This document shows, one piece after another, positions 26,721 to 49,355 of a stretch of 64,000 nt of DNA. Numbering within the stretch: position 1 is the first letter of the stretch; the number at the start of each line of letters is the position of its first letter. Below the pieces are notes generated by a model, which did not search any database, was not told where the DNA came from, and was given only the letters and a program-made list of their open reading frames with translations. The translations under genes and the position numbers were made by a program. Source of the stretch: an uncultured Methanosarcinales archaeon (GTDB lineage: Archaea > Nanobdellota > Nanobdellia > Woesearchaeales > CAYZNE01); contig CAYWRI010000002.1 of assembly GCA_964461035.1 (NCBI GenBank), positions 11,129 to 75,128 on the forward strand, read 5' to 3'.

Positions 26721-26725
26721 ATTTA

Positions 26726-27849: not shown

Positions 27850-27851
27850 TA

Positions 27852-28370
27852 ATGGTGTACTCAAAATTTCCTTCAAAAAAGGCACAAGTTGAAATTATGG
27901 GTCTTGTAATAATAGTTATTTTAATTGTAATAATAATATTTGTTGTTCTTGTTTTCATGTTAAATAAAAAACCGAATGAGGTTGTTTCAAAGTATTCTGA
28001 TTCTCAGTATCCCACCGCATTTATTCTTGCACTTTTAGACACAAGTTCTATGTGTCAAGACCATGTTCCAATAAAAAGTTTAATTTATGATTGTGCTGTT
28101 GACAAGAGAATTCATTGTCCAAGTTCAGATACTTCTTCTTGTAAATATTTGAATGAATCTCTTACACAAATATTTGATTCAACATTAAATGCGTGGGGAG
28201 AAAATTATGAATTTAAAATGGATCACGCAGCATTTATTCACTACAATAATTTTACTTTTTCATCTGGTTGTGGTCCTTATTCAACTGTTGAAACTAATCC
28301 CTTTCAAATTATTCCTTTGTGGCCAAGAAGGGATTTTGTCAGAGTAAGCATGAAAATATGTTCTAATTAA
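27852..28370 (+). CDS. Type IV pilin-like protein, 172 aa.
   Basis: N-terminus MVYSKFPSKKA|QVEIMGLVIIVILIVIIIFVVLVF. Confidence 0.65.
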   Translation: MVYSKFPSKKAQVEIMGLVIIVILIVIIIFVVLVFMLNKKPNEVVSKYSDSQYPTAFILALLDTSSMCQDHVPIKSLIYDCAVDKRIHCPSSDTSSCKYLNESLTQIFDSTLNAWGENYEFKMDHAAFIHYNNFTFSSGCGPYSTVETNPFQIIPLWPRRDFVRVSMKICSN

Positions 28371-28415
28371 AATAATTTATGTGTTTGAGAATATTATATT
28401 TTAATAAAATGAATT

Positions 28416-29105
28416 TTAATTTTCAGTAACGTGAATATTAAATTCTTTTGTAAATAAAGGCATTTTAGAATCCATTTTTTCATAGGCTTCAAGAATTATT
28501 GTACAATAGCCTGATTTTATTTTATTCATGTCAAATTTATTAAGATCACTTATTGGTTTTGGTAACTCAAGTTTGAATATGAGTGGTCCGTCAGGATTAA
28601 AACAAGGAGTTCCATCATTTAATTTAATTTCAAATTGTATGACGGAATAATTAAAATATCTGTGTGGTGCATATAACTCAAAATGTATTACTTCAGGTTC
28701 ATCTATTTCAATTAGATTTTCTTTTTCTATTTTAGGAAATAAATATTGCTTATCTGCAATACTATTAAAATAATAATTAAATTCAATTTTATCTGTAGGA
28801 TTGATTTCAGGTATACAACAAACTAAATCTTTTGTTGCTTCTTTTGTGTCTTCATTTGTTAAATCTAAACAAGCTCCTCTAAATGTAGAAACTCTTTCAC
28901 TTGAAAGACACATATCTTTACTTGTAACACAAATACCTGGTTCTCCAGGAACTATAAAACATTCTCCATGTTTTTCTAAAGCTGGATTTATTATATCAAC
29001 CACATTAGGTATTATGTTTAGAGAGATTAATAAAACTATAATAACTATTATCAGGGTGGCTATCATCCACATTACATTAGAATCCGCTTTTTTAGTATTT
29101 TTCAT
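28416..29105 (-). CDS. Type IV pilin-like protein with a Cys-rich knot ending in the 'VCCIP' motif, 229 aa.
   Basis: N-terminus MKNTKKA|DSNVMWMIATLIIVIIVLLI, then C-x-C-x-C...LVCCIPE. Confidence 0.6.
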   Translation of the reverse strand: MKNTKKADSNVMWMIATLIIVIIVLLISLNIIPNVVDIINPALEKHGECFIVPGEPGICVTSKDMCLSSERVSTFRGACLDLTNEDTKEATKDLVCCIPEINPTDKIEFNYYFNSIADKQYLFPKIEKENLIEIDEPEVIHFELYAPHRYFNYSVIQFEIKLNDGTPCFNPDGPLIFKLELPKPISDLNKFDMNKIKSGYCTIILEAYEKMDSKMPLFTKEFNIHVTEN

Positions 29106-29172
29106 TTTTTGATTTGTTCAAATTGTTTTATGTTTGTTAAATACGTATAAATTATTATTTTTAATACAATTT

Positions 29173-29439
29173 TTATTCAGGTTTTTCTCCACCACAGCAA
29201 ACATAATTAGGATTTGTTTCTTTTTTACAATTTATATCGCTACCTGCAAGATGAATAGTTCCTTCTGGGCAAGTTGTTCCTGCCTGACAAAATGAGGCTG
29301 CATAAGCTCCGCAACCTTTTTCTAGTTTTACGTTGTGAAATATATCTGTATAATAATAAATACCCAATCCTAAGCCTATAACCGCTAAAATAATCATAAT
29401 CACTTGAAATGACATTTGTGCTTTTTTATGTTTATTCAT
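29173..29439 (-). CDS. Small Cys-rich pilin-like protein (88 aa from the internal Met). The track ORF extends to 29532 and overlaps the upstream gene.
   Basis: MNKHKKA|QMSFQVIMIILAVIGLGLGIYYY, then GCGAYAASFCQAGTTCPEG...NYVCCGGEKPE. Confidence 0.55.
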   Translation of the reverse strand: MNKHKKAQMSFQVIMIILAVIGLGLGIYYYTDIFHNVKLEKGCGAYAASFCQAGTTCPEGTIHLAGSDINCKKETNPNYVCCGGEKPE

Positions 29440-31270
29440 TTTCTTGTGCCTCACATTCTTCTTCTGAATTATTCCATTCGCAAATAGAACATTGATCACA
29501 TTGATACTCATTACTAAGTCTATCACAATCATCTTTGTTTTGAGGACAAGTGCTACAGTAGTTAGTTAAAAAGCCCTTTTCTTCTTTATCTTCTCGTTCC
29601 CAATAACAATTTGCACCGGGTAAACAAGGATTTTGAATACAAGCATTTTTTCTTGCATAAATTTTACAATTCAAATTAGTTTGAGTTGCTTGAGCACAGG
29701 GCACACAATCATAATTTTCATCGCTATCACCACTACGTTTATCAGAATAACATTGATATTGCGGATTAGTACTACTACAAAAAGAATCAGCACTGCTATA
29801 AGGTGGACTATTAATAAAATAATTATTATAAATCTCGGCTTTAGTAGGATCTACAAAATTATATCCCAAATGTTCAGAAGTTATTTGACTATGAACTGAA
29901 TTACATATTTGTTCATACATAGTGTTGCCTCCCGCTCTCGATATGGCATCGCATTCAGCTATATCGCAAGTATTTGATGGACTGCTTTTTTCAGGATTCA
30001 CATAGTATATTTTTGAACAAGATAAGTGAGATTCTACAAAAATTGATTTTGTTGCAGGTGCAAAACCCATAATGCATATTTTTGATTCTGTTATTGGCGA
30101 ACTATAAACACCATCATTTTGAACTTGACCATTTTCTGCAAAAATAAATGAATCATAATATGATTCATATTGTTCAGGATTTGTTAGAGAAATTAAATTA
30201 TTAGGACATTTTTCTGATGACTTTTTTAGACTTATTCCAACAAATTCACAAGGATAATCTCTTGAATCATCTGTTTTTCTTGCTTTACAATATATGTCGC
30301 AGACTGTTCCCATTCCATTAACACCTAAAACGGGTCTTGACTCAATATTAAAAGAAATAGAATCAAAAGTTTCAGGAGTTGTTATTTCGTCTTCTAAGAT
30401 TTCAGGAACATCAACAAAAGTTCTTATGTACTGAGACTTATCATCACTATTACCATTCCATCCTTTCATTAAGAGCATGAACATTGCGTCTTTATCTCTT
30501 CTTTCTGGTTGTGCATAATTACTACATGATGCAAATGGTAATTTGGATTCCCAAACTTCTTTATTAAATGCTATGTCATTGGTTCTTTTAAAATAAACAG
30601 GGCCACTAATACTGCATTCACCTTTTGCATTTTTTGTTCCTGTAGCAATTTTCTTTGATTCATCAGCATAACTTGGATTATTTGATTCATCCATCCAATT
30701 AATCCTTAATTCACAATGTTCAACATCGGTCATGTTCCCATAAAATATGACTTTACCATCAGGATTTAGTCCATTTATTTCTACACCTACATTATCTCTT
30801 ACTTGATGACAGTTATGAATAACATTATTCCATTTACTAATTGGTCTTATTCCTGTAGCAGTTGCATCATTTCCCACGTTTTTATAAAATAATTGATCAG
30901 ATGATTTTGAATCTGGATCACCAGGTAGTATTTGTGAGCCTGGTGTTGTTCCATTATTATCTGATTTAGAACCACCCAAAATATTCAAATAACAGTTTTC
31001 TCCTACAACAATTTTTTCATTTTTTTCATTAAAACAATCAAGAAAACTTATTTTTATTCCCATTGCAGGCCTAACATCTGAACAAGACATTAAGGGATTA
31101 TAAGATTCACATTTAAACATTGATAAACCAAGACCTAAAGCAGAATTTATAAAATAAAGTGACACTCCAAGCACTACAAGCACTACAACCGCAGAAAGAA
31201 CTAATCCGAGTCCTGAATTCTCGCCTTTAGTATTTATTCGATGTTTCATTTTGTTATTTATCTCACACAT
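29432..31270 (-). CDS. Large pilin-like or secreted protein (612 aa) with an N-terminal hydrophobic helix and a Cys-rich C-terminus.
   Basis: N-terminus MKHRINTKGENSGLGLVLSAVVVLVVLGVSLYF. The C-terminal ~110 aa holds more than 20 Cys (CVPCAQATQTNLNCKIY...CSTCPQNKDDCD...). Confidence 0.65.
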   Translation of the reverse strand: MCEINNKMKHRINTKGENSGLGLVLSAVVVLVVLGVSLYFINSALGLGLSMFKCESYNPLMSCSDVRPAMGIKISFLDCFNEKNEKIVVGENCYLNILGGSKSDNNGTTPGSQILPGDPDSKSSDQLFYKNVGNDATATGIRPISKWNNVIHNCHQVRDNVGVEINGLNPDGKVIFYGNMTDVEHCELRINWMDESNNPSYADESKKIATGTKNAKGECSISGPVYFKRTNDIAFNKEVWESKLPFASCSNYAQPERRDKDAMFMLLMKGWNGNSDDKSQYIRTFVDVPEILEDEITTPETFDSISFNIESRPVLGVNGMGTVCDIYCKARKTDDSRDYPCEFVGISLKKSSEKCPNNLISLTNPEQYESYYDSFIFAENGQVQNDGVYSSPITESKICIMGFAPATKSIFVESHLSCSKIYYVNPEKSSPSNTCDIAECDAISRAGGNTMYEQICNSVHSQITSEHLGYNFVDPTKAEIYNNYFINSPPYSSADSFCSSTNPQYQCYSDKRSGDSDENYDCVPCAQATQTNLNCKIYARKNACIQNPCLPGANCYWEREDKEEKGFLTNYCSTCPQNKDDCDRLSNEYQCDQCSICEWNNSEEECEAQENE

Positions 31271-31326
31271 ATCTATTTACTTTTATAAATTCTAAAAATT
31301 ATAAATAAAAATTAAATATTATTTTT

Positions 31327-31584
31327 TTAGCTAGTACTTAGGATACAGCATTCCTGATTTCCAGGGCAAACCAATTCATTACCTTCATTATCATAAGAAT
31401 AATCTGCAAAAGCGCCATCACAAGATTCTCTGCACATTCCCATCTTAGAACTGCAACTTATTCCACTATCAATAGGCTTAATCATACTAACAACGAAGTA
31501 GATTATTACTCCTAAAACTAATAACCCAAGAACTGCCACTATTACTGTATGTAAACTTAAGCTCTGTGCTTTTTTATTCAACAT
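31327..31584 (-). CDS. Small Cys-rich pilin-like protein, 85 aa.
   Basis: MLNKKA|QSLSLHTVIVAVLGLLVLGVIIYFVV, then a Cys-rich tail ending ECCILSTS. Confidence 0.65.
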   Translation of the reverse strand: MLNKKAQSLSLHTVIVAVLGLLVLGVIIYFVVSMIKPIDSGISCSSKMGMCRESCDGAFADYSYDNEGNELVCPGNQECCILSTS

Positions 31585-31607
31585 TTTTTATTACCTCATT
31601 AGTTTTT

Positions 31608-31850
31608 TTAGATTGGTATGCAACATACAGGATCTTCTTCGGGGCATCCTCTCTGTCCACTTTCTAAATAGCCATCACCACACCAGCCAGAATCATCACA
31701 TCTTGCTCCAGATATTCCAGTACAACTTGTCTGATCAAAAAGTTCTCCACCTGTATTCAAAACAAGGGTTGCAAGAATTACTAGGACAAGTAATGATACT
31801 GCTGCAATAATGATTGTATTCATACTTAATCCTTGTGCTTTTTTATTCAT
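31608..31850 (-). CDS. Small Cys-rich pilin-like protein, 80 aa (tandem paralogue of 31327..31584).
   Basis: MNKKA|QGLSMNTIIIAAVSLLVLVILATLVL, then a Cys-rich tail ending PVCCIPI. Confidence 0.65.
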   Translation of the reverse strand: MNKKAQGLSMNTIIIAAVSLLVLVILATLVLNTGGELFDQTSCTGISGARCDDSGWCGDGYLESGQRGCPEEDPVCCIPI

Positions 31851-31960
31851 TTTTTCACCTCATTAATCTTTTTATGTTTAATGTAACTTAACCCATTCTT
31901 TATTTTTATTACCTTTATATATAAATTTATTGATAACTTTTATGTTTTTTTTGATATTTT

Positions 31961-32671
31961 TTACACTAAAGTCCATTCATATTCTCCATTAACTTTTTTA
32001 CATTGATATTCTATTCCATCACTTTTAATTACATTTTTTTGAAGATTTTCTTTTGTTTCTTTGCTAAATTCTTCTGTGCATTTAAACCAATAATAGTACT
32101 TTCCAGCATCTATTTTTGCACATAATAATCCTTTTGGTTTTGAATTTAATAATTGAATTATCGTGTTATCTGCAGTTGCGGTTATTGTTGTTATTGAAGT
32201 AAGATCCATTTCACTTAATATTCCATTGAAGTTTCCTAGTTTTCCATTAGGTTCAAATAAAAATGGTTCTTCAAATGTATCTGTGTCCTTAGTATATCCC
32301 TTAATAAAACAACCAAATCTATCCATAAAGTTAATTGGATATTGTTGTTCAAAAACATCTTTTGAAATATGTTCAAATTCTATGAATTTATCATAATCAA
32401 AAGTTTCAAATTTATTATCAACAACAAGTATAAATTCATAAGCAATCTTTTCAAACTGAATGTATTCTGCTGGAAATTTGTCACCTTCCACTTCTGCATC
32501 CATATAACTTTTGAATATTTCTTTTATAGAAATTATCATAGAATCTAATCCTTTTGTTATTGTTTTTGGAGAAAAATCTGATAATAATAAACTTGCAAGT
32601 ATAACGACGAATATTATGATTGTAACTACCATAGAATAATTTGCTTTTTTCTGTGAAATTATTTTCATCAT
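31961..32671 (-). CDS. Type IV pilin-like protein, 236 aa.
   Basis: MMKIISQKKANYSMVVTIIIFVVILASLLLS. Confidence 0.55.
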   Translation of the reverse strand: MMKIISQKKANYSMVVTIIIFVVILASLLLSDFSPKTITKGLDSMIISIKEIFKSYMDAEVEGDKFPAEYIQFEKIAYEFILVVDNKFETFDYDKFIEFEHISKDVFEQQYPINFMDRFGCFIKGYTKDTDTFEEPFLFEPNGKLGNFNGILSEMDLTSITTITATADNTIIQLLNSKPKGLLCAKIDAGKYYYWFKCTEEFSKETKENLQKNVIKSDGIEYQCKKVNGEYEWTLV

Positions 32672-32710
32672 TTTATTGCTCTATACTACTCTTTCATTCA
32701 TATACCTTAT

Positions 32711-32851
32711 TCATATTCGGATTAAGCCTCTTATAACATCTATAAATCCCTTGCTTGCATCTTGCTGTTGTGACATACCAACTATAATAACTATTAGGAA
32801 TAGAAGTGATAGGACTATCCAGAATACAATTGAATACATTCCTTTTTTCAT
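32711..32851 (-). CDS. Mini-pilin-like peptide (46 aa from the internal Met MKKG...). The track ORF 32711..32956 is longer.
   Basis: MKKG|MYSIVFWIVLSLLFLIVIIVGMSQQQDASKGFIDVIRGLIRI. It consists only of the signal region plus the hydrophobic helix. Confidence 0.4.
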   Translation of the reverse strand: MKKGMYSIVFWIVLSLLFLIVIIVGMSQQQDASKGFIDVIRGLIRI

Positions 32852-32936
32852 ATTATTACCTCTTTTTTTGATATTTATAATCTTTTTGATTAAATCATGC
32901 AGTTTGACGAACTTACACTTGAAAGTCAAAATTTTT

Positions 32937-34001
32937 TTATTTTTCAAATTCCACACTCATTTCACAATTCATCGATGATATCATCCATGTTTCATATGGT
33001 ACAACATACATTGCTGAGATTATTATTTTTTTTCCATTAGAACTTATATGATTTATTTCATAAAAAACAATTCCGTAGTATGTGTATTTATCTTGTTTTT
33101 TATAATCTTGAAGTGTTCCAGTTTCATAATACTCTTTGAGGTTTGCTTCAAGAACCGCAAGATGTTCCTTAATCTTTTGATCCTTAGCTTCTGTATTAGC
33201 AATTTCACCCATTCTCGTAGTTTGACTGAGCGCAAGTATATATGATTTTGAACCTTCACTTTGAGTTTCTAAAGGAATTTCGGTAACTAAGTGGGCATAT
33301 CCTAGATAACAGTTTTCAACCCAGTTTTTATATTCTGGATAGTCATCTTTGAATGAATCATGATGAAATCCCGTAATTGCAAAAAAATTAGAATAACTAC
33401 TGTAAATATTAACTACCTGATTAAAATAATGATCATCATTTCTTTTAAGATATTCTTCAATAGTTATAGTATTATCTGAACTTGTAGGAAACAATTCTTT
33501 GATATTAGTATAGTATAATATGTTCGACCAATTATTCATTTGAAAATTTTCATTAAATCTAACAACATATCTTACATGACAAAATGCATCTTTAGTAATA
33601 TCAGGATAAAACATTTTCTCTCCTTCACCAAATTCATTCCATGTTTTGACAGTTAATTTTATTAGCTCTTTTTGAGCTTCTTCTTTAGTTTCAGCCTTAG
33701 ATTTTATCATTTTTGTATTACATTCTATTGGAGGAACATTAGTTTTATCTACGTCAAACAAATAAGCTAGCAAACCAATATTTTCATCAATTTTTTTCTC
33801 TGTTCTTAATAACGCTTCAACAAAATTTTTATGAGTTTCTATTGAAGCAATACAATTAGTTTCTTCAATTTCGTCTTTAAACTTAGAACCTATTAAGCTA
33901 TTTACCAAAATCGACATTATTATGATACTTATGCAAATAATTATTATCACATTTACTATATCTTTCAAATCTGTTTCTGCTTTCTTTCTTTTAATTATCA
34001 T
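32937..34001 (-). CDS. Type IV pilin-like protein with a large C-terminal domain, 354 aa.
   Basis: MIIKRKKA|ETDLKDIVNVIIIICISIIIMSILV. Confidence 0.55.
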   Translation of the reverse strand: MIIKRKKAETDLKDIVNVIIIICISIIIMSILVNSLIGSKFKDEIEETNCIASIETHKNFVEALLRTEKKIDENIGLLAYLFDVDKTNVPPIECNTKMIKSKAETKEEAQKELIKLTVKTWNEFGEGEKMFYPDITKDAFCHVRYVVRFNENFQMNNWSNILYYTNIKELFPTSSDNTITIEEYLKRNDDHYFNQVVNIYSSYSNFFAITGFHHDSFKDDYPEYKNWVENCYLGYAHLVTEIPLETQSEGSKSYILALSQTTRMGEIANTEAKDQKIKEHLAVLEANLKEYYETGTLQDYKKQDKYTYYGIVFYEINHISSNGKKIIISAMYVVPYETWMISSMNCEMSVEFEK

Positions 34002-34010
34002 TTTTAAACA

Positions 34011-35123
34011 TTAACCCATTGGAAGGTAAAGTCCCTGAAATTTTGCGATTTCAGTTTCAGGACGTAGTATTTGTAAATTATACGGGATGGCAACCAGCAA
34101 ATTCATGTTTATTATGTTACCCGCTAAGGTGCTTGTTTCAGCAACTAAATATTCCACATTTATATTATATTGAATGGTAGTATCTATTTTATTATCTCTA
34201 TTTTCTCCTATTACCATTTGTTTTAGATTATTTTTAAAATTAAATGCGGCCACATTTTGTTCTGAAATAGTTTTAATTCTTTCCATATATCTTTCAACCA
34301 TAAGATTATAATTATCTAAGAATACCGAGTCATCAATTTTTTTATCTGGAGCAAAGGGTGCAAGATATTTTTTTCTAAAATAGTCTGCATAAAACATATC
34401 ATCTGTATCTTTTGTTTTTAGAATACTTGCAAAATTATATAATTCCGTTAATTCAGTATTTAAAAATACTTTTGAATCAAAGTTAAAAGATACACAGGGT
34501 TTTGCCATAATCATGTTGCTTGGTTCAATACCTGATAGGTTTACTAGTTTTTCAGTTCCTGCACCCATAATTGATTTACCGTTTATTATTTCTTTAATAA
34601 CGTCTACACTATAAACATCTGCAGGTGAACTGATGGCGGTTTGTTTCATGAGTTTCATTGTTATTTCATTAACATCTCCTTTAAAGTTTACAACCGCTCT
34701 TGATATTAACATACTATCAACATAATAAATATTATCGCATAGTTTCATTTCCTGTAATATTATAGAGTATACTGCGTATTCTCTTTCTTTCTCTTCAGGA
34801 AAATAAATATGCTCATTTTTTAGTTTTTGAATTTCTTTTGAATACGAATAAGTAAATATTTTTTCTTTCTTATCACTTAAAAGATCATATTTAACTGCCT
34901 CTTTTTCTCCAAACTTAAGAATATATTCATGACAAGTACTAAAACCTACAGGAACTCCTTTTGCTGACAGTGCGATTTGTGTTTTACAAGCTTGATAGTT
35001 CGTATTGTTTGTAATCAGAGTTATTATCATGATTGATAAACCAATTAAAATAAGAGCTCCAATGAAAAGCAATATTATCTTTACTGAGCTGTCAATCATT
35101 GCTTTTTTTGTTTTTAATTTCAT
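34011..35123 (-). CDS. Type IV pilin-like protein with a large C-terminal domain, 370 aa.
   Basis: MKLKTKKA|MIDSSVKIILLFIGALILIGLSIMIITLI. Confidence 0.55.
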   Translation of the reverse strand: MKLKTKKAMIDSSVKIILLFIGALILIGLSIMIITLITNNTNYQACKTQIALSAKGVPVGFSTCHEYILKFGEKEAVKYDLLSDKKEKIFTYSYSKEIQKLKNEHIYFPEEKEREYAVYSIILQEMKLCDNIYYVDSMLISRAVVNFKGDVNEITMKLMKQTAISSPADVYSVDVIKEIINGKSIMGAGTEKLVNLSGIEPSNMIMAKPCVSFNFDSKVFLNTELTELYNFASILKTKDTDDMFYADYFRKKYLAPFAPDKKIDDSVFLDNYNLMVERYMERIKTISEQNVAAFNFKNNLKQMVIGENRDNKIDTTIQYNINVEYLVAETSTLAGNIINMNLLVAIPYNLQILRPETEIAKFQGLYLPMG

Positions 35124-36069: not shown

Positions 36070-36699
36070 ATGGTCAAATTAGGTTTTTTATTAAAAAAAT
36101 TTTTCAGAAGTATATTTAAAGGTAGAAGAGATATAAAACTGGGTTTATATGGCCCGCCAAATGGTGGAAAAACAACTTTAGCTAACACAATTTGTAAAGA
36201 TTGGCTTGGTGAAGAGATGGGTTCTGTTTCTAATGTTGCTCATGAAACAAGAGAAGTTCAAATAAAAGAAGAAGTCACCATAAAAAATAAAGCTGGAAAA
36301 GAATTAAAATTTAATCTGGTTGATACTCCAGGAATTGCTACAAAAATAGATTATGAAGATTTTCTGAAATCTGGAATGAAAGAAGCTAAAGCAAAAGAAA
36401 GGGCAAAAGAGGCAACCAAAGGAGTTATTGATTCAATAAAATGGCTTGATGATATGGATGCAGTAATAGTTGTTTTAGATAGTACAATAGATCCATATAG
36501 TCAGGTAAACATAACTATAATGGGAAATTTGCAGGCAAGAGATATTCCTGTTCTTGTTGTAGGAAATAAAGTAGACTTGAAAAAAGCAAATCTTAAGAAA
36601 CTTCAAGCAGCATTCCCTCAATATGATGTTATAGGAATTAGTGCTAAATATGGAAAAAATATAGAAGAACTATATGATTCAATTTTTAAATTAGTTTAA
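36070..36699 (+). CDS. Small P-loop GTPase (Ras/Arf-like superfamily).
   Basis: G1 GPPNGGKTT, G3 DTPG, G4 NKVD. Confidence 0.7.
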   Translation: MVKLGFLLKKFFRSIFKGRRDIKLGLYGPPNGGKTTLANTICKDWLGEEMGSVSNVAHETREVQIKEEVTIKNKAGKELKFNLVDTPGIATKIDYEDFLKSGMKEAKAKERAKEATKGVIDSIKWLDDMDAVIVVLDSTIDPYSQVNITIMGNLQARDIPVLVVGNKVDLKKANLKKLQAAFPQYDVIGISAKYGKNIEELYDSIFKLV

Positions 36700-36715
36700 A
36701 AGAGCGTGAGAAAAG

Positions 36716-37102
36716 ATGTTAACATTTCAATTTGTACCATATGAGGATATAAGAGGACTTGATTCAGATCAGAGAATAAAGCGACTTTTAAGCATGGTTA
36801 AATCAGAAAAAATAATTCTGTTAGCAGGTCATCTTAAAAGTCAAGAAGAGGCAGAACTAATAAAAAGAACAATGGAAGCAATATCTAAAACCTTTAAAGG
36901 AATAGAGATAGGTTCTATTTCTCCAAGACATGCTAACAAGTTTAAAGAATTTTTGCTCAGAACTTTTTTCGGTGAAGAAACAGGATTTACAATTATAGGT
37001 CCTGCATCTGTAATAAAAGAAATAAAACAAGATCCAGGTAAAATTCAATTATTTATGAATGAAGCTGAAGGAAAAAAATCTATTAATAAGAGAAAAAGAT
37101 AA
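36716..37102 (+). CDS. Small conserved protein, DUF2073-like, that partners the GTPase.
   Basis: 128 aa, directly downstream of the GTPase and upstream of the Zn-ribbon gene. The family assignment is from memory of this conserved archaeal trio and was not verified. Confidence 0.4.
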   Translation: MLTFQFVPYEDIRGLDSDQRIKRLLSMVKSEKIILLAGHLKSQEEAELIKRTMEAISKTFKGIEIGSISPRHANKFKEFLLRTFFGEETGFTIIGPASVIKEIKQDPGKIQLFMNEAEGKKSINKRKR

Positions 37103-37103
37103 A

Positions 37104-37490
37104 ATGCCACATCAATGTGTTAAATGCGGAGAAATATATGATTCTGGTACAGATGTTATTCTAAAAGGATGTAGAAAATGTGGTGGAAAGATGTTCTTTT
37201 TTATTAAAAAAGATGCATTAGCTAAAAGAAAAAATATTGTTAAAAATCTTTCTGAAGAAGAAAAAATTCAAATAGAAAAAGATGTTTATGACATTATGGG
37301 TGAAGATATAGATAAGGAAAAGCCTATAATACTTGATATTGAATCAATAAACATTCTTAAACCAGGAAAATATGAACTCGACCTTGTTAATCTCTTCAAG
37401 AAAAAACAACCACTGATTTATAAACTCGAAGATGGCAAATATATTATTGATTTAATTGAAACTTTTAATAAATTTCTAGGTAAAAAGTGA
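37104..37490 (+). CDS. Zn-ribbon protein (DUF2072-like).
   Basis: MPHQCVKCGE...GCRKCGG gives a CxxC...CxxC ribbon. The start is adjusted to the ATG immediately after the upstream stop. Confidence 0.5.
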   Translation: MPHQCVKCGEIYDSGTDVILKGCRKCGGKMFFFIKKDALAKRKNIVKNLSEEEKIQIEKDVYDIMGEDIDKEKPIILDIESINILKPGKYELDLVNLFKKKQPLIYKLEDGKYIIDLIETFNKFLGKK

Positions 37491-37741
37491 ATTAATATTG
37501 TTAATTATAGTTAACTATCACACATTACTAAAATACTTGAGGTGAACTTACGAAAAAAATATTTTTAGTATTACTTTGTTTAGCAGTTTTATTAGTTTCT
37601 GGTTGTGGTCATCAAACAACTATTAACAATAATGAAACTGAGAGTGTTGTTCCTTCAACAGAACTTCTTGTAAATGCATTAAATACTATTGAGTTTCCTG
37701 AGGTTCATGGCGAATTAAAACTTCCTGCTTTTTTCACTTCT

Positions 37742-38347
37742 TTGACAGATAATGAATTGATTGCATACCCTGTTTTAAGAGGTTCAACTAATTTCTATGC
37801 TGCACAATCATATGAAGTTGATTTACCTTCTCAAGAAATTATGAATTTATCTAACGACGAAATAATTTCTTATTTTGAAACTTTAAGCTTTAATAATTTC
37901 AATACTTATTGTTATGTTGAAAACAATGATGATTCAGAATTAAATAGAAACATTATTTGTGATGAATTCTCTTTTTCTGATTCTTGTGAAGTATCAACTT
38001 ATATTTTTCCAGAAGATGTTTTAGCTGTGTTTCCAGATTTATCTTCTATAGAATTTGAAAAGTGCTCTTTTGAGTTTCCTGGTTCAACAGATAGTAATAT
38101 TTTAATTAGTGACAATTATTTGATTATTGATAAAAAAACATATAGATCTCAAGGATATCCTGAAGTTCCTCATATTTTAATTCTGACTGGTGTTGTTCCT
38201 ACAAATTTTGAAGAAACTGATTATGTTTGTCAAATTCAAACTTCAGACTTAGAATATTATCAATACATAGAATCTCAAACTCCTTGTGAAGAAATACAAT
38301 CAAGTTCAACAATGCTTAGATTATTATCTAATTCATTATTGAATTAG
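37742..38347 (+). CDS. Secreted lipoprotein, as called by the track. The true N-terminus (signal peptide plus lipobox) is probably upstream and out of frame; see the finding at 37538-37745.
   Basis: The frame is open from 37541 and encodes ...KKIFLVLLCLAVLLVSGCGHQ... without a start codon. GTG at 37542 is in the +1 frame. Confidence 0.6.
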   Translation: MTDNELIAYPVLRGSTNFYAAQSYEVDLPSQEIMNLSNDEIISYFETLSFNNFNTYCYVENNDDSELNRNIICDEFSFSDSCEVSTYIFPEDVLAVFPDLSSIEFEKCSFEFPGSTDSNILISDNYLIIDKKTYRSQGYPEVPHILILTGVVPTNFEETDYVCQIQTSDLEYYQYIESQTPCEEIQSSSTMLRLLSNSLLN

Positions 38348-38472
38348 TTTTTTCTTTTTTATTTACTTTTTGTCATAAGTTCTGCATATTTTTGAGTTGC
38401 GTTTTTTGCAAATTCTTCATAAGTTGCTTTAAGTTCTTCAGGAGTGTTAGCGTTTGAAAATTTTTGTACGAA

Positions 38473-38757
38473 TCAGGACCCACAATGTCCATGTGTCGAT
38501 ACTAAGTGTAATCGCTCTTTATCTATTTTTGAGTCTATTGAATCTTTTAAGTTTTTCCTTATTGAATCGTCTAGTTCACGAATTTTTTTACGGCTTTCTC
38601 CGTCTCCAAGCATATAAACTAATTTATAATAAATATCACTAAATGAAATACCATTTTTAGAATTATTTAATGTCATTGTAGCTTTAAATCTGGTAGCTTT
38701 AGAAATAATTATGTCAGAATCAAAGTACTTATGCACTTGAGCGTCTATATAATTCAT
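38473..38757 (-). CDS. Hypothetical protein that ends ...HGHCGS at a TGA. The same frame continues for 38 more codons to a TAA at 38359.
   Basis: See the finding at 38359-38757. Confidence 0.5.
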   Translation of the reverse strand: MNYIDAQVHKYFDSDIIISKATRFKATMTLNNSKNGISFSDIYYKLVYMLGDGESRKKIRELDDSIRKNLKDSIDSKIDKERLHLVSTHGHCGS

Positions 38758-38834
38758 AACTTGAAAACAATATGTTAATTTAAACTCTTTTTATGTTAAA
38801 ACTTATATAAACAGATTTTAAAAAAATAAAAAAA

Positions 38835-40274
38835 TTATAAAGATTTTTGCAAATGATATTTATCAAATACCATCTTAACAATCTCTTTACTTTGTCCAAT
38901 ATATTTAGTTGGATTAGTTATTTGAACTATTGTATCGTTACTTAATCTTGAAGTTACTTCATCGCTTTCAAGAAGCACATTTACAAAAGGAATTTTATTA
39001 TTCCATGCATAAGTTGCTAATGCACCCATTAAATCATGAGCTTCTGATCTAGTCATAGGATTATCTGTTTTATTGTTATCTGTTAGATAAGTCATAACTT
39101 GTTGAGATGTAGTACAACCATAACTCCTTAAAACTCTTTCTTTAGATCGTTTTGCACGTATTTGAATATCATACATTATTCTACTCAATCTTCTAATTCC
39201 ATGATCCAAAAACTTGAATCCGTCTTCTAAATTTATTCTTGCGTTTGAAGATGCAGATAAATCTCTTGCATATAACATTTGACAATTCATCATTCCCGTA
39301 GTTAAATTTCCAACTAAATAGTTAGCAATAGACATAACTTGTTCTTCTGCAGTGGGATTTCCTCCTTTTACATCTTTATGAGGCATTGCTGAACTACCCT
39401 TCATTTTTTTACCTGTGTTAACAAAAATATTTACATCATCACTTCGTCCCCATGCAATGTATCTTGCTAAGTTATTCATTGTTGTTCCAAGTCTGGCAAT
39501 AGCATAAAAAATATCTGCTTCAAATTCTAAGCCTGGAAGTTGTGCAGGTGCCATCATCCATCCAATACCTAAATCTTTACAATATTCTTCTTGTAATTTT
39601 ATTCCATCAACACCTAATGCTGTTGCTGAATGATTATTTCCTGTAGCATCTACCCATTTTCCAATAATTGAATTATTGTAAACAAATTTTATAACATTAA
39701 GATCAGATTGAAGCATTTCTGCATAAAAACTAAGAGGTCTTCCAGCAACAGTTGGTAGAGCATCATATAAATGAGACGTATCCATGTGGGGAACATCAAT
39801 CCAAGCTATAGATTTTTCCAAAACAATATCTCTTAAATTTTCAACAGAATTTGTTATTACTTCAAGAGCTTCTTTAACTTGGAGTGCTCTTGCAGGTTGA
39901 GTTGTATCTGCACTTGTTTTGAACTGGTTAATATGTGTTCCAGCATCATGACTTACAACTTCTTCTAAAGCAGTGTTAATTGCAATAACATCATGACCTG
40001 TTTGTTCTTCAAGTACTCTAATTCTATTTGCATCTATATGCTTTAAAGAAGCCTTTTCTTTTAATTCTTTAGCACATTTTGGAGGAACAATTCCTGGATA
40101 TAATCTAGATAATGTTTCTGCAGCTTGACCTTGAACATTTAAACTTTTTTCAAATGTTTGTTCAGGTCCAAAAATATTAATCATTTCTAAAGTTCCGTAC
40201 CTTCCTGCAGCTAATGAAGAAACATCTGGTTCAAAATTTTTTGGAAATCTTGCTTTTGGTTCAGTTTTTATCAT
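38835..40274 (-). CDS. purB: Adenylosuccinate lyase (fumarate-lyase superfamily).
   Basis: Signature GSSAMPHK...NP. 479 aa. Confidence 0.7.
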   Translation of the reverse strand: MIKTEPKARFPKNFEPDVSSLAAGRYGTLEMINIFGPEQTFEKSLNVQGQAAETLSRLYPGIVPPKCAKELKEKASLKHIDANRIRVLEEQTGHDVIAINTALEEVVSHDAGTHINQFKTSADTTQPARALQVKEALEVITNSVENLRDIVLEKSIAWIDVPHMDTSHLYDALPTVAGRPLSFYAEMLQSDLNVIKFVYNNSIIGKWVDATGNNHSATALGVDGIKLQEEYCKDLGIGWMMAPAQLPGLEFEADIFYAIARLGTTMNNLARYIAWGRSDDVNIFVNTGKKMKGSSAMPHKDVKGGNPTAEEQVMSIANYLVGNLTTGMMNCQMLYARDLSASSNARINLEDGFKFLDHGIRRLSRIMYDIQIRAKRSKERVLRSYGCTTSQQVMTYLTDNNKTDNPMTRSEAHDLMGALATYAWNNKIPFVNVLLESDEVTSRLSNDTIVQITNPTKYIGQSKEIVKMVFDKYHLQKSL

Positions 40275-40431
40275 TTAAATACACCCCGCATAACATATCT
40301 TGAAAAACAATTATATTATTTAATACTTTCTATTATTTTGAAGTCAGAATGTCTTTGCTTTTAAACTTAGGTTTATTCTTTAATTCAAGCAATGATAATT
40401 GTGGGTCTCACAACACTAATTGTGGGAACAG

Positions 40432-40720
40432 TTGTCTTTATTTATTTACAAAAAAGCCAATACTATAACCTATGCAAAAATGAAAAATCAAAGATTTTTA
40501 GTCATGTCTTCGACATAAACCAGAGGTTTTTGAAATACAAAATTGTAAATTTTGGTCATTATTGATTGAAAATCAATAATAAACGAAAAACAGAGTTTTT
40601 GGTCACGATAAAGCGTAAATCGAAGATTTAGGTTGTAGATGTAGGCTTTTTTGGATGCCATCCTTTTTGTTGGATACCGCATTCTTTAGGTTGTGAAAGG
40701 ATGTCATTTTATCAGGTAGT
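40432..40720 (+). repeat. Intergenic repeat element, copy A (about 280 nt). It is related to 61645..61870 and to a partial copy near 44040..44095.
   Basis: Shared blocks: aaaaaagccaa[tc]ac[tc]ataa[ct]ctatgcaaaaa; c[at]gaggtttttgaaa; cgaaaaacagagtttttggt[ct]ac[ga]ataaagcgtaaatcgaagatttaggttgta[ga]atgtaggcttttttg; tttaggttgtg...ggatgt[ct]attt. Confidence 0.6.
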
Positions 40721-43997: not shown

Positions 43998-44118
43998 AAA
44001 ACTATTTTATATTATTGGATGAGTATTTAAGTTAGACTGTGTTTATTGTTCGCAAAAAACCAATATCATAATCCTATAAAAATCATAGAGCTTTAGTGTG
44101 CTAAAAACTTTTTGTTAT

Positions 44119-44795: not shown

Positions 44796-46013
44796 ATGGG
44801 TGAAGAAAAATTTCAGAAGTTAGTTAAGGCTGCTAAGATATCGGCTAATACTTATCCTGTAAAGGGTGTGGACATATTATTGCCTTTAGGTAAAGCGATT
44901 CTTTCTAATATTGAAAATTTATGTTTATCTTCCTATAAAGACATTGGTTATAAAGAAGTTAGTCTTCCAACAGTATTACCTGAAAAACTTATAGCGCACT
45001 TGAGAAAAGACGGATTGTTTAAATTCAATAATGAATTTGGGCAATATTTTCTTGCTCCAGGCTATGAAACTCAAGCAGTTCTAATGTTTAATGATATTAT
45101 CGATAATTATACTATGTTTCCAGTAAAAATATTCAATATTGGCAGTGCTTATAGACAAACTGCTAAAACACATCTTATTAAGAATTTAGAATTTAGAATT
45201 ATTGAATTTAACTCCTTTTTTAAACTAAGAGAAGACGCTGAAAACGAACTTGATAAATTTAATAAAATTGTTCCGAGAAATCTTAATGCTTTAGAAATTC
45301 CTTGGATTAAATCTAAAGATTCTAAAAATCCTAATGCACAACATAAGTTTTTCGCTTTCTTTCCACACTCTGAACGATTTGGTAGTGTGGCTTGTAATTT
45401 GATAGCAGATTATAAATACACTCAAGCACATGCAATTTCTCTAATCGATGAAAATCATAATCATTTTTATCCTGTTCAATTAAATGCTAGTTTTACAGGA
45501 AGGATGCTCGCAGCGTACTTATCGAATCATATGTATGAAGAAAGAGGTTTCATGTTAGGAAATAATATTTCTCCATATATGGTCCTAGTTAATGAATTAG
45601 ATTTTGATAAACAAGAACTAACTGGATTGACAAGAAGATTTCGTGAAAGTAATATATCTTATCTTCTCTTAAGACAAAAGAGTAATACTCCCAGTTATAA
45701 ACAGTTCATTGCATCAGGCATACCTTTTCAGTTAGGATCAGGAAAACATGATTTGAAAATTAGGAAGAGAGGAGAGGATGTCATCTGGGTAAATTCTAAT
45801 AATGTTATTGAAAGACTTTTATCTCTTAATGAAAATACATTTTCTGTAGATGCTAAGGTTATAAAAGTCATTGAGATAAGCGAAATTCGTAAAGAATATG
45901 CTTCAGATGCAGTATATGTAACAGATAATCCTGCTTTCAATCCGCAAAATAAACTTAAGTTTATTGGTTTTAACGAAGAGAATCAGAGATTGTTCGTGAA
46001 GATGAAGTATTAA
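44796..46013 (+). CDS. Prolyl-tRNA-synthetase-like class IIa aaRS paralogue (archaeal/eukaryotic type, C-terminal Tyr). Motif 2 looks divergent.
   Basis: N-terminus YPVKGVDILLPLGKAILSNIENL...GYKEVSLPTVLPEKL is like archaeal ProRS. The class IIa anticodon-binding region is ISPYMVLVNEL. The protein ends ...KMKY. However, motif 2 reads YRQTAKTHLIKNLEFRIIEF, where the usual fRxE...R(E)F..EGH residues appear substituted, and at 405 aa it is short. Confidence 0.5.
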   Translation: MGEEKFQKLVKAAKISANTYPVKGVDILLPLGKAILSNIENLCLSSYKDIGYKEVSLPTVLPEKLIAHLRKDGLFKFNNEFGQYFLAPGYETQAVLMFNDIIDNYTMFPVKIFNIGSAYRQTAKTHLIKNLEFRIIEFNSFFKLREDAENELDKFNKIVPRNLNALEIPWIKSKDSKNPNAQHKFFAFFPHSERFGSVACNLIADYKYTQAHAISLIDENHNHFYPVQLNASFTGRMLAAYLSNHMYEERGFMLGNNISPYMVLVNELDFDKQELTGLTRRFRESNISYLLLRQKSNTPSYKQFIASGIPFQLGSGKHDLKIRKRGEDVIWVNSNNVIERLLSLNENTFSVDAKVIKVIEISEIRKEYASDAVYVTDNPAFNPQNKLKFIGFNEENQRLFVKMKY

Positions 46014-47006: not shown

Positions 47007-48464
47007 TTACTTGAATAAAACTCTTTTGCTAATTAAAGGATTTAGCATCAATCTTTCATAAGGGAAATTTTCAATACGCTTATGTATTGTATTGTAAAGT
47101 TGTTCAGGGCTTGTTTCAAAAGTTTCTTTATCCGCTCTAACTCTTACAGGGATAAGTTTTGATTCTAGTTCTTTTTCGCCAATAACAACTATGTAGGGAA
47201 CCCAGTCTTTTTCAGCAAGTCTTATTTTTTTTCCAACACTAAGATTTCTATCATCTACTTCTGTTCTTATTTTTTTACTGTCAAAGTAATTTAGTAGTTC
47301 TATTGAATGATCTAAATAGGACTCTGATACAGGCACTATTCTTAATTGTGACGGTGCTAACCAAAAGGGAAATTCTGGAACTTTACCTTCTCTTTGATCT
47401 ATTGCGGTATTTTCAAGGATGCTACATAGAGCCCTTTCAATACTTCCAAAACTTGAAGCGTGAAGTATAACTTCTGCAGGTCTCTTTTTTCCGTCGATAG
47501 TAGGTCCAATTCCAAAACGTTCACCATTTTTCACATCCCATTGAACAGTTGAAATTTGAATATTTGATCCATCTGAATTTATACTTTGATACTCATTCTT
47601 AAATGCAAAATAATGTGACATTTCGGGCATTAGTTTGATAAGTGCAGGAACATTAAGATTATCACTTACTGATTTGAACCAATCTTTATTCTTATCAAAG
47701 TATTCATTAGTAGTTTCCCATCCCATAACCCATCTGTCTTTTGCAATTACATTATTCATAAGTCCTGCAAAGAGTTCTGATAATTCTTCAAACTCTTGTT
47801 TTGCTTGTTCGCCGGTATCATAAACTCCGTGCATATCAGTCATAATAAACCATCGCATTCTTTTTAGTCCTGATACTGAACCTTCTAATTCATTTCTGAA
47901 GCAATAAGCTTCTTCATAAACCTTTAGCGGTGATTGTTTTTCAGAATAGATAAGGTTTTGCATGAATGGAAAACCTAGCGGGTCTGAAGCATATCTTAAG
48001 TAAGCTTTTCCTCTTCCACCATCAACAGTATAATTGTTTTCGTGAAATTCGCCCATTAGTTTCATAACCAATTCGTTGTCAGCCTTCATTATTAAAGGAT
48101 TGCCCATTTCTAATGCACCCCATTTATAGGCTAATTCTTTTGCATAATCAAGCATCAGGTTTCTCATTACCATTCCCTTTGGATACCATTTCATATGACC
48201 TTTTTCTGAAACGTCGCAATAGTCTACAAGATCATGTCTTTTCATTAATTCTATGTGGCTTACCTTATTATTTGCGGGTTTAGTAGTCGTTTCTAAATTC
48301 AATTCATTATTTATGAATTGTTGTAAGAATTTTGCTTGATAATTCGTTTTCTTAAAATAAGGATGCTTTTTAAAATTTTCGTCATGTATTTGTATGATGT
48401 CTGTTCCTGGTGCTGTCCAGTAAAAGCTTTTAAATTTTCCTCGCTCTATATTTGATTCGACCAT
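47007..48464 (-). CDS. thrS: Threonyl-tRNA synthetase, catalytic plus anticodon-binding domains only. It has no N-terminal TGS or editing domains.
   Basis: Motif 2 SPLKVYEEAYCFRNELEGSVSGLKRMRWFIMTDMHGV aligns residue for residue with ThrRS LPLR..E...CHRNE.SG.L.GL.RVR.F.QDD.H, including the Zn-ligand Cys and His. Also HIELMKRHDLVDY / GHMKWYPKG at the start of the domain. Class IIa anticodon domain WLAPSQLRIVPVSE. 485 aa, against about 620-640 for a full-length ThrRS. Confidence 0.75.
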   Translation of the reverse strand: MVESNIERGKFKSFYWTAPGTDIIQIHDENFKKHPYFKKTNYQAKFLQQFINNELNLETTTKPANNKVSHIELMKRHDLVDYCDVSEKGHMKWYPKGMVMRNLMLDYAKELAYKWGALEMGNPLIMKADNELVMKLMGEFHENNYTVDGGRGKAYLRYASDPLGFPFMQNLIYSEKQSPLKVYEEAYCFRNELEGSVSGLKRMRWFIMTDMHGVYDTGEQAKQEFEELSELFAGLMNNVIAKDRWVMGWETTNEYFDKNKDWFKSVSDNLNVPALIKLMPEMSHYFAFKNEYQSINSDGSNIQISTVQWDVKNGERFGIGPTIDGKKRPAEVILHASSFGSIERALCSILENTAIDQREGKVPEFPFWLAPSQLRIVPVSESYLDHSIELLNYFDSKKIRTEVDDRNLSVGKKIRLAEKDWVPYIVVIGEKELESKLIPVRVRADKETFETSPEQLYNTIHKRIENFPYERLMLNPLISKRVLFK

Positions 48465-49352: not shown

Positions 49353-49355
49353 TTT

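What the first reader, a model, noticed from the sequence alone, without database searches (positions are those of the whole stretch)
38359..38757. In-frame TGA inside an apparently continuous ORF, in a Cys-x-x-TGA context
On the minus strand the 94-aa ORF ends ...KERLHLVSTHGHCGS-TGA. The same frame then continues for 38 more sense codons (FVQKFSNANTPEELKATYEEFAKNATQKYAELMTKSK) to a TAA at 38359-38361. The downstream segment has no start codon of its own, and it looks like genuine protein sequence. The TGA is immediately preceded by C-G-S, so the element would read C-x-x-U, the classic redox selenoprotein arrangement. The alternatives are a recent nonsense mutation (pseudogene), stop-codon readthrough, or a base-call error. 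The two homopolymer frameshifts elsewhere in the window make an assembly error plausible. Selenocysteine would be remarkable in this kind of archaeon, because the known archaeal Sec users are Methanococcales, Methanopyrus and some Asgard lineages.
Basis: seen in the sequence. Interest (0 to 1): 0.55.

Follow-up and report, generated by a model that had tools for sequence, protein, structure and literature searches.

The report
Premature TGA stop in orphan gene
A small gene found only in this one DPANN archaeal population has a genuine TGA stop two-thirds of the way along what was once a 132-codon reading frame; this is most likely an ordinary recent nonsense mutation, not selenocysteine.

Summary
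On the minus strand a 94-codon ORF (38757→38476) ends HCGS-TGA (38475-38473).

The TGA is not an assembly error. Five other public assemblies from at least three samples carry it, and all are identical across the ORF.

The downstream 37 codons have full coding character (codon log-odds 19.7 bits; GC1/2/3 = .43/.32/.135). Homogeneous non-coding nulls reproduce this about 5 times in a million, so it is or recently was part of the gene.

TGA is a normal stop elsewhere in the window. Selenocysteine is not supported:
- There is no bacterial-type, published euryarchaeal-type or Asgard-type SECIS.
- There is no tRNA and no Sec machinery gene in the 64 kb.
- The organism is a DPANN archaeon, a group with no known Sec users.
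- The protein has no homologue among about 15 billion proteins, so no Cys/Sec alignment exists.

A 3'-UTR hairpin has a G-AA/G loop that loosely recalls an archaeal SECIS. It fails the published descriptor and reads better as the terminator of the convergent gene.

The public 132-aa protein with Trp at this position is a code-4 gene-calling artefact.

Best explanation: a recent nonsense mutation in an orphan gene (about 0.68). Sec is about 0.03.

The parts
38476..38757 (-). 94 sense codons of the orphan ORF (MNYIDAQV...THGHCGS), start ATG at 38757-38755
   Evidence: Codon log-odds is 0.30 bit per codon and GC1/2/3 is .36/.31/.21, which is coding-like. It is present as a called gene in ENA, Logan and JGI assemblies.
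38473..38475 (-). In-frame TGA (codon 95), followed by T
   Evidence: It is identical in L001-L006. The TGA-T context is the commonest context of ordinary TGA stops in the window, 6 of 11.
38362..38472 (-). 37 further sense codons in the same frame (FVQKFSNANTPEELKATYEEFAKNATQKYAELMTKSK), read here as the relic (or rarely translated) C-terminus
   Evidence: Codon score is 19.7 bits, the 75th percentile of real gene windows. GC1/2/3 is .43/.32/.135. Homogeneous non-coding nulls give a joint probability of about 5e-6.
38359..38361 (-). TAA, the original stop of the 132-codon frame. It lies 11 nt from the stop of the convergent gene.
   Evidence: The 11-nt spacer TTTTTTCTTTT resembles the other very AT-rich convergent spacers in the window.
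38301..38346 (.). AT-rich hairpin (10-13 bp lower stem, AA/G internal loop, 6 bp upper stem, AAUA loop on the minus-strand RNA) inside the last codons of the convergent gene
   Evidence: (z = -3.2 on the minus strand, -2.5 on the plus strand). It fails the published GAA_A descriptor. It is the only hit of a descriptor I relaxed after the fact, at lower stem >= 9 bp and upper stem >= 6 bp, in 128 kb.
38348..38360 (+). T6-C-T6 run just after the hairpin and the TAG stop of the + strand gene. It is terminator-like for that gene.
   Evidence: Read directly. The purB 3' end has the same hairpin plus T-run layout. The terminator role is inferred.
37742..38347 (+). Convergent neighbour, a 201-aa orphan ORF (the stop-to-stop frame starts at 37532)
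   Evidence: It has no Pfam or PHROG family.
38803..38811 (-). TTTATATAA, an archaeal TATA-box-like sequence about 50 nt upstream of the ATG, in the 77-nt, 13% GC spacer after purB
   Evidence: Read directly. Promoter function is inferred and was not tested.
38835..40274 (-). Upstream neighbour purB (adenylosuccinate lyase), used to place the organism
   Evidence: Pfam Lyase_1 and ADSL_C. It is 60-75% identical to proteins of Nanoarchaeota, Woesearchaeota, Pacearchaeota, Aenigmarchaeota and Diapherotrites MAGs.

Best explanation
A gene specific to this lineage, originally 132 codons long, picked up a single-base nonsense mutation at codon 95, creating TGA. The likeliest sources are TGG (Trp), GGA (Gly), TGT (Cys) or an Arg codon. 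The mutation is fixed in the sampled population. Translation now ends at the TGA through the ordinary archaeal release factor and yields a 94-aa product, which may or may not still function. The remaining 37 codons are an untranslated relic. They still look like coding sequence because too little time has passed for them to decay.

Shown here: the TGA is real and fixed; TGA is an ordinary stop in this genome; the downstream segment has coding character in this frame. Inferred: that a sense codon once stood there, and that the tail is no longer translated.
For: - Real base: six assemblies agree.
- TGA is a normal stop. 20 of 60 ORFs of 100 codons or more (stop to stop) end in TGA. Long genes either have no internal TGA or have one only within a few codons of the end. 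The OapC Pfam match reaches profile position 132 of 133 just before its TGA.
- The extension is coding-like: 19.7 bits, GC1/2/3 periodicity equal to real genes, joint null probability about 5e-6.
- With the extension, the convergent spacer becomes an 11-nt T-rich stretch like the window's other spacers. Without it, the spacer is 125 nt at 27% GC, against 2-24% for the other convergent spacers.
- Only 19 of the 333 possible single substitutions in the tail create a stop. By my own calculation, a neutral relic would stay open until roughly 0.1 substitutions per site.
- The TGA-T context is typical of real stops.
- No recoding signal was found.
Against: - No intact allele or orthologue with a sense codon has been found. 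The protein has no homologue at all, and relatives with 70-75% identical purB carry other genes at this position. The ancestral state is therefore inferred, not observed.
- Zero polymorphism in the ORF gives no test of relaxed selection.
- The Cys at -3 and the G-AA/G hairpin in the 3' UTR are two coincidences, each at about the 1-2% level, that this explanation has to absorb.
Confidence: 0.68

Rival explanations
1. This is an ordinary 94-aa gene whose natural stop has always been this TGA. The 37 open codons behind it are a chance feature of the 3' untranslated spacer.
For: Open runs of 25 or more codons after a stop occur in 4 of about 44 window genes that do not run into a same-frame neighbour. 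In empirical 'intergenic' windows, 6% of stop-free 111-nt stretches score as high, and so do 2% of stop-free off-frame windows inside genes. Another convergent spacer of 121 nt and 24% GC exists at 43998-44118.
Against: Homogeneous non-coding nulls almost never give this codon score (about 1e-4 given stop-free; joint probability about 5e-6). The three-base GC periodicity equals that of real genes. The empirical nulls are contaminated by real coding constraint: antisense and off-frame stretches of genes, and unannotated small genes in large gaps.
Confidence: 0.1
2. There is leaky or programmed UGA readthrough by a standard near-cognate tRNA (for example Trp or Cys). It would give a major 94-aa product and a minor 132-aa product, with selection keeping the tail.
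For: The tail is intact and fully coding-like. Both products would be plausible proteins.
Against: No stimulatory structure follows the UGA. The 69 nt from the UGA fold at -1.5 kcal/mol, z = +1.7. The UGA-U context is the commonest ordinary stop context here. In Archaea the only demonstrated stop-codon readthrough events are Sec and Pyl (PMC8211752). There is no comparative evidence of selection on the tail.
Confidence: 0.08
3. The UGA encodes selenocysteine in an orphan C-G-S-U redox protein, and the 3'-UTR hairpin 38301-38346 acts as a divergent archaeal SECIS.
For: - Cys sits at -3, giving a C-x-x-U arrangement.
- The tail is intact and coding-like.
- A stable hairpin starts 16 nt after the TAA. 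It has an asymmetric internal loop, 5'-G-AA / 3'-G.
- The two A residues are the invariant part of the methanogen SECIS, and an A-to-G change of the opposing base kept some function in M. jannaschii fruA (PMC11881835).
- A descriptor relaxed after the fact finds such hairpins only 1-5 times in 128 kb at comparable stem lengths.
Against: - The published euryarchaeal descriptor (GAA_A) does not match the hairpin. Its only nearby hit (38140-38175) has a weak upper stem and is at the chance rate of about 1 per kb.
- The hairpin has no run of G/C pairs in the upper stem.
- There is no Asgard-type SECIS on this strand, no Rfam SECIS and no bacterial-type hairpin.
- The same hairpin followed by T6CT6 reads as the terminator of the convergent gene, and purB has the same layout.
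- The 64 kb holds no tRNA and no SelB/SelD/PSTK/SepSecS domain among the genes scanned.
- The host is DPANN. Sec in archaea is known only in Methanococcales, Methanopyrales and Asgard (PMC13188914, PMC11227280).
- From my own knowledge, known selenoprotein families generally have Cys-containing homologues. This protein has no homologue at all.
- The low-confidence model is all-alpha, not thioredoxin-like.
Confidence: 0.03
4. The TGA is a sequencing or assembly error, or the genome reads TGA as Trp or Gly (code 4 or 25).
For: A public 132-aa protein (P0002, JGI/IMG) shows Trp at this position.
Against: The DNA of that JGI contig reads TGA, so the Trp comes from a code-4 gene call on a short AT-rich contig. 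Five assemblies from at least three samples read TGA. TGA ends many conserved genes and is absent from the interior of long genes.
Confidence: 0.01

Closest known systems
Genes truncated by a nonsense mutation (young pseudogenes or shortened alleles) in prokaryotic genomes
   Same: A single in-frame stop sits in an otherwise intact frame. The downstream part keeps its codon usage and its original stop. The stop codon is an ordinary one for the genome, and no recoding signal is present.
   Different: No intact orthologue or allele is available to show the ancestral codon, so pseudogene status is inferred from sequence statistics only. The 94-aa product may still be functional.
Archaeal selenoprotein genes (Methanococcales, Methanopyrales, Asgard): in-frame UGA plus a 3'-UTR SECIS
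   Same: There is an in-frame UGA with a Cys three residues upstream. A stable hairpin lies shortly after the stop codon, with an asymmetric internal loop that contains the AA dinucleotide.
   Different: The GAA_A bulge with flanking G-C pairs is absent, and so is an Asgard or eukaryote-like kink-turn SECIS. No Sec machinery is seen. The host belongs to a superphylum with no Sec users. The protein has no Cys-containing homologues and belongs to none of the 11 archaeal selenoprotein families counted in PMC13188914.
UGA-to-Trp (table 4) or UGA-to-Gly (table 25) reassigned genomes
   Same: A public database entry translates this very codon as Trp.
   Different: In this genome TGA terminates conserved genes and is absent from their interiors. 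The Trp is an annotation artefact.
DUF2004 (PF09406; Thermoplasma acidophilum TA0743, PDB 2ABY)
   Same: There is a local 13/25 identity between tail residues 106-130 and TA0743 residues 87-111 (PEExK...ExF..N....YxELMTK).
   Different: E = 0.29 against the PDB. The DUF2004 profile does not match the orphan, either whole or as a C-terminal fragment. I treat the match as chance.

Membership tests
Archaeal selenoprotein gene | In-frame UGA inside a continuous coding frame | tested here: met
Archaeal selenoprotein gene | Euryarchaeal SECIS in the UTR: two stems, a 5'-GAA_A-3' bulge and consecutive G/C pairs in the upper stem (PMC11227280, PMC11881835) | tested here: not met
   I re-implemented the published PatScan descriptor. 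The only hit within the scanned region 37500-38800, at 38140-38175, has a 3-bp upper stem with one G-C pair. The background rate is about 66 hits per strand per 64 kb. The hairpin at 38301-38346 has G-AA/G and one G-C pair in the upper stem, so it fails. It passes only a descriptor I relaxed after the fact.
Archaeal selenoprotein gene | Asgard or eukaryote-like SECIS ([A/G]UGA ... [G/A]A core, 7-15 bp upper stem, 8-20 nt loop) | tested here: not met
   One search finds no hit on the minus strand at 37700-38500, although the background is 115 hits per 64 kb. Rfam gives no SECIS family at E <= 10.
Bacterial-type selenoprotein gene | SECIS hairpin immediately 3' of the UGA | tested here: not met
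   the 69 nt from the UGA fold at -1.5 kcal/mol, z = +1.7.
Archaeal selenoprotein gene | tRNA-Sec, SelB, PSTK, SepSecS and SelD in the same genome | tested here: inconclusive
   The 64 kb has no tRNA at all. None of these domains appears among the roughly 40 genes scanned; the two largest genes, 14919-22091 and 22088-25735, were not scanned. The rest of the genome could not be fetched.
Archaeal selenoprotein gene | Homologues with Cys (or Sec) aligned to the UGA | tested here: inconclusive
   No homologue exists among 5.8 billion clusters, 1.84 billion representatives, GTDB genomes or JGI metagenomes. Relatives have no positional orthologue either.
Archaeal selenoprotein gene | Host lineage known to use Sec | tested here: not met
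   The closest purB relatives carry DPANN names. The literature limits archaeal Sec to Methanococcales, Methanopyrales and Asgard.
Reassigned UGA genetic code (tables 4 and 25) | UGA at conserved sense positions inside genes, and UGA not used as a stop | tested here: not met
   The second apparent in-frame TGA (stop of the ABC ATPase ORF, 49358-49356) separates two unrelated genes.
Nonsense-mutation pseudogene or truncated allele | The stop is a real base, not an error | tested here: met
Nonsense-mutation pseudogene or truncated allele | Sequence downstream of the stop keeps in-frame coding character | tested here: met
Nonsense-mutation pseudogene or truncated allele | An intact allele or orthologue with a sense codon at the position | tested here: inconclusive
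   None was found. All six assemblies carry TGA, and the JGI scan, which included a W(TGG)FVQKFSN pattern, found no other allele.
DUF2004 (PF09406) | Match to the family profile | tested here: not met
   Searches give no hit at E <= 10. Only a pairwise match to TA0743 exists, at E = 0.29.

The most novel reading that the evidence does not exclude
A DPANN archaeon makes an orphan C-x-x-U selenoprotein. The UGA would be decoded through a divergent, AU-rich 3'-UTR SECIS (G-AA/G loop, 38301-38346). This would extend selenocysteine use to a superphylum with strongly reduced genomes. A weaker version is functional UGA readthrough without Sec, which has not been demonstrated in Archaea.
Probability: 0.03. 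Interest if true: 0.85.

Novelty: already known. Interest (0 to 1): 0.12.

Why it matters
As it stands this matters little. It is one more young truncation in a fast-evolving orphan gene of a DPANN genome.

It has two practical uses:
- It shows that public protein collections hold a wrong 132-aa 'Trp' translation of this locus, produced by a code-4 gene call on a short AT-rich contig.
- It is a worked example of how a C-x-x-TGA context and a nearby hairpin can mimic a selenoprotein signature by coincidence.

Only if Sec machinery turned up in the rest of this genome would the locus become important. It would then be the first selenoprotein in DPANN and a new SECIS variant.

Tried and rejected
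- Family searches on the 132-aa product. Pfam and NCBIfam, PHROGs and PDB sequences gave nothing significant. The TA0743/DUF2004 lead was rejected because the family profile does not match. A follow-up search with the TA0743 fragment found no candidates.
- Homologue searches. The word-indexed search and the exhaustive phmmer search returned only the protein itself. The GTDB genome scan found nothing. The JGI metagenome scan found only identical copies.
- Synteny. Relatives with 70-75% identical purB carry an HD-domain gene, an aaRS or IMP cyclohydrolase downstream, so there is no positional orthologue.
- The 132-aa 'Trp' protein as evidence for a sense allele. Rejected because its DNA reads TGA.
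- A second in-frame TGA at the end of the ABC ATPase ORF (49358-49356) as a sign of systematic recoding. Rejected because it separates two different genes, an ABC ATPase and a nucleotidyltransferase, as TGA AAA ATG.
- A suspected frameshifted gene at 28416-31270. Rejected because these are separate genes, each with its own N-terminal membrane anchor.
- AlphaFold2 on the single sequence. Mean pLDDT was 48.7, so the model is unusable and I ran no fold search.
- Fetching the rest of the 119,634-nt NCBI contig or naming the organism. It is not on record. The ProRS genome scan gave only hits of 37% identity or less over most of the protein, all archaeal.
- Slightly different purB alleles (L025, L026; 99.8-99.9% identical). 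These contigs end 15-49 nt after purB and do not reach the orphan gene.
- Rfam on the whole window. No family reached its gathering score.

Full report
OBSERVATION

On the minus strand an ORF starts at ATG 38757-38755 and reads 94 codons to ...S-T-H-G-H-C-G-S, followed by TGA at 38475-38473. The same frame continues FVQKFSNANTPEELKATYEEFAKNATQKYAELMTKSK to TAA at 38361-38359. The tail has no start codon of its own. The description is therefore correct.

IS THE TGA REAL?

- The 94-aa product is on record in NCBI, ENA and Logan assemblies.
- I fetched contigs from ENA ERZ27316756 (L001), Logan SRR8862237 (L002) and three JGI metagenomes: Ga0307992 (L003/L004), Ga0307991 (L005) and Ga0307990 (L006).
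- All of them read TGA and are identical to the window across the ORF. The only two mismatches lie at 39525 and 37449, near contig ends.
- A base-call or assembly error is therefore excluded for practical purposes.
- All copies are at least 99.9% identical, so this is one clonal population and offers no comparative signal.

THE 'TRP' PROTEIN

The 90% cluster of this protein contains a 132-aa member from JGI/IMG with W at position 95. Its contig nevertheless reads TGA. The W comes from a gene call made with genetic code 4 on a short AT-rich contig. It is not a sense allele.

GENETIC CODE

- The window is 28% GC.
- Of 60 ORFs of 100 codons or more (measured stop to stop), 20 end in TGA.
- When only TAA and TAG are treated as stops, long genes either have no internal TGA or have one only within a few codons of the end.
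- OapC's Pfam match reaches profile position 132 of 133 just before its TGA.
- A second apparent in-frame TGA, the stop of the ABC ATPase ORF at 49358-49356, separates an ABC ATPase from a nucleotidyltransferase as TGA-AAA-ATG.
- TGA is therefore an ordinary stop in this genome.

IS THE TAIL CODING, OR OPEN BY CHANCE?

Length alone is unremarkable. Among 48 genes, four that do not run into a same-frame neighbour have 25 or more open codons after their stop. Composition is a different matter:
- The tail's codon log-odds (in-frame against off-frame usage of the window's genes) is 19.7 bits. Real in-frame 111-nt windows average 15.4 +/- 6.3.
- Its GC1/GC2/GC3 is .43/.32/.135, against .38/.32/.16 for genes.
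- Three homogeneous non-coding nulls were run: a shuffle of the segment, a first-order Markov model of short spacers, and one of the whole window. They give P(stop-free) = 0.02-0.05 and P(score >= 19.7 | stop-free) of about 1e-4 or less. The joint probability is about 5e-6 or less per gene.
- Two empirical nulls give 2% and 6%: stop-free off-frame windows inside genes, and stop-free windows in 'intergenic' gaps. Both are contaminated by real coding constraint.
- With the tail included, the convergent spacer is 11 nt of T-rich sequence, like the window's other spacers. Without it, the spacer is 125 nt at 27% GC.

I conclude that the tail is, or recently was, part of the gene.

WHAT ORGANISM, AND WHAT PROTEIN?

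- The neighbours are purB (38835-40274) and an OapA/B/C origin-associated cluster (36070-37490).
- purB is 60-75% identical to proteins of MAGs named Nanoarchaeota, Woesearchaeota, Pacearchaeota, Aenigmarchaeota and Diapherotrites.
- The ProRS has only archaeal relatives.
- The protein itself is an orphan. It has no Pfam, NCBIfam or PHROG family. It has no homologue in the 5.8-billion-cluster search or the exhaustive phmmer of 1.84 billion representatives, and nothing in GTDB genomes.
- Relatives with 70-75% identical purB have unrelated genes downstream.
- AlphaFold2 without an alignment gave an all-helical model of pLDDT 48.7, too poor to use.
- A local match of the tail to TA0743 (DUF2004, PDB 2ABY; 13/25 identities) has E = 0.29, and the family profile does not support it. 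I treat it as chance.

SELENOCYSTEINE

- No bacterial-type hairpin follows the UGA (-1.5 kcal/mol, z = +1.7).
- Rfam finds no SECIS.
- I re-implemented the descriptors of PMC11227280. The euryarchaeal GAA_A descriptor hits about 66 times per strand in the window by chance. Its only hit near the gene (38140-38175) has a 3-bp upper stem with one G-C pair.
- The Asgard type I descriptor has no hit on the right strand between 37700 and 38500.
- The window holds no tRNA. None of the roughly 40 genes scanned has a SelB, SelD, PSTK or SepSecS domain.
- Reviews restrict archaeal Sec to Methanococcales, Methanopyrales and Asgard (PMC13188914; PMC11227280).

One thing deserves mention. A stable hairpin begins 16 nt after the TAA (38301-38346, z = -3.2). 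On the minus-strand RNA it has a 10-13 bp lower stem, an internal loop 5'-AA/3'-G closed below by a G-C pair, a 6-bp AU-rich upper stem and an AAUA loop.
- The two A residues are the invariant part of the methanogen SECIS, and an A-to-G change of the opposing base kept some activity (PMC11881835).
- A descriptor relaxed after the fact to admit it has 216, 21, 5 and 1 hits in 128 kb as the stem thresholds rise, and this hairpin is the single hit at the strictest level.
- So this is a coincidence at roughly the 1-2% level. The Cys at -3 is another, since Cys is 2.08% of codons.
- Against it, the hairpin fails the published descriptor and lacks the G-C clamps.
- The hairpin also has a simpler reading. 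On the + strand it is followed directly by T6CT6, right after the TAG of the convergent gene 37742-38347. That is a terminator-like layout, and the purB 3' end shows the same one.
- Given the very low prior (an orphan protein, a DPANN host, no machinery seen), I put Sec at about 3%.

READTHROUGH WITHOUT SEC

The UGA-U context is the commonest among ordinary TGA stops in the window. No structure follows the UGA. In Archaea the only demonstrated stop-codon readthrough events are Sec and Pyl (PMC8211752). I give this about 8%.

MOST LIKELY MECHANISM

A single-base nonsense mutation arose in a lineage-specific 132-codon gene and is now fixed.
- Codon frequencies in the window are TGG 0.89%, TGT 1.77%, TGC 0.31%, CGA 0.17%, AGA 1.86%, GGA 2.46%, TTA 4.50% and TCA 2.49%.
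- I assume a GC-to-AT-biased, transition-rich mutation spectrum. Under that assumption, which is inference and not measurement, Trp, Gly, Cys and Arg ancestors are all plausible and Cys is not favoured.
- Only 19 of the 333 possible single substitutions in the tail create a stop. A neutral relic would therefore remain open for roughly 0.1 substitutions per site. An intact-looking tail is not in tension with loss of translation.
- The weak point is that no intact allele or orthologue exists to show the ancestral state.

VERDICT

It is an ordinary feature of a known kind, a young truncation of an orphan gene. Interest is low unless Sec machinery is found in the rest of the genome.

Noticed in passing
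L003 / L004 (JGI 3300031601, Ga0307992_1052814) 658-1056; protein P0002: The public collection holds a 132-aa translation of this locus with Trp at the TGA. The contig DNA reads TGA, so the gene was called with genetic code 4 on a short AT-rich archaeal contig. This is a database artefact that could mislead homology-based checks.
   Followed up: yes
window 36070-37490 (+): An OapA-like GTPase, OapB (PF09846) and OapC (PF09845), the origin-associated proteins, sit in a row. This suggests a replication origin nearby. I did not look for ORB repeats or an Orc1/Cdc6 gene.
   Followed up: no
window 38826-38885 (-) and 38301-38360: Two gene ends share one layout: an AT-rich hairpin within the last codons, followed directly by a T-run after the stop. 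They are purB and the + strand orphan 37742-38347. This bacterial-style intrinsic-terminator architecture is seen at only some gene ends of this archaeal window.
   Followed up: partly
window 38362-38436 (tail residues 106-130): There is a local 13/25 identity to Thermoplasma acidophilum TA0743 (PDB 2ABY, Pfam DUF2004): PEExK...ExF..N....YxELMTK. E = 0.29 against the PDB, and the DUF2004 profile does not match. It is probably chance.
   Followed up: yes
window 48549-51122 (-): An ABC ATPase gene with two ATPase domains (588 aa) ends in TGA. One AAA codon later, in the same frame, comes the ATG of a nucleotidyltransferase gene (267 aa). The pair looks like an 869-codon ORF with one internal TGA but is two genes.
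   Followed up: yes
window 8363-11647 (-), 11710-14737 (+), 14919-25735 (+), 25772-35123: There is a long run of large genes (1094, 541, 483, 2390 and 1215 aa) and many smaller ones. All those scanned lack a Pfam family; the 2390- and 1215-aa genes were not scanned. Several are Cys-rich with N-terminal membrane anchors (for example 29432-31270 and 28416-29105). They are probably lineage-specific surface proteins. About half of the window's genes are orphans.
   Followed up: no
L025 (ENA ERZ27316679) and L026 (JGI Ga0307991_1050501), equal to window 38786-40579: Slightly different purB alleles (1-4 SNPs, 99.8-99.9% identical) occur in sibling samples. Several assemblies break between the purB 3' end and the middle of the orphan gene: contigs end at 38786 and 38820, and others start at 38642 and 38546. 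This may reflect low coverage or strain heterogeneity just at this locus.
   Followed up: partly
window 44796-46013 (+) and 47007-48464 (-): Two class II aminoacyl-tRNA-synthetase-like genes lie 1 kb apart. One is 405 aa with only the tRNA-synt_2b core. The other is a 485-aa ProRS-like protein with an anticodon-binding domain.
   Followed up: no
window 471-1940 (+): The 307-aa orphan ORF ends in TGA and is followed by 68 more open codons. That stretch runs antisense through the convergent TrmB-like gene (1427-2173) and contains further TGAs. It is an example of a long post-stop open frame produced by an overlapping gene.
   Followed up: partly
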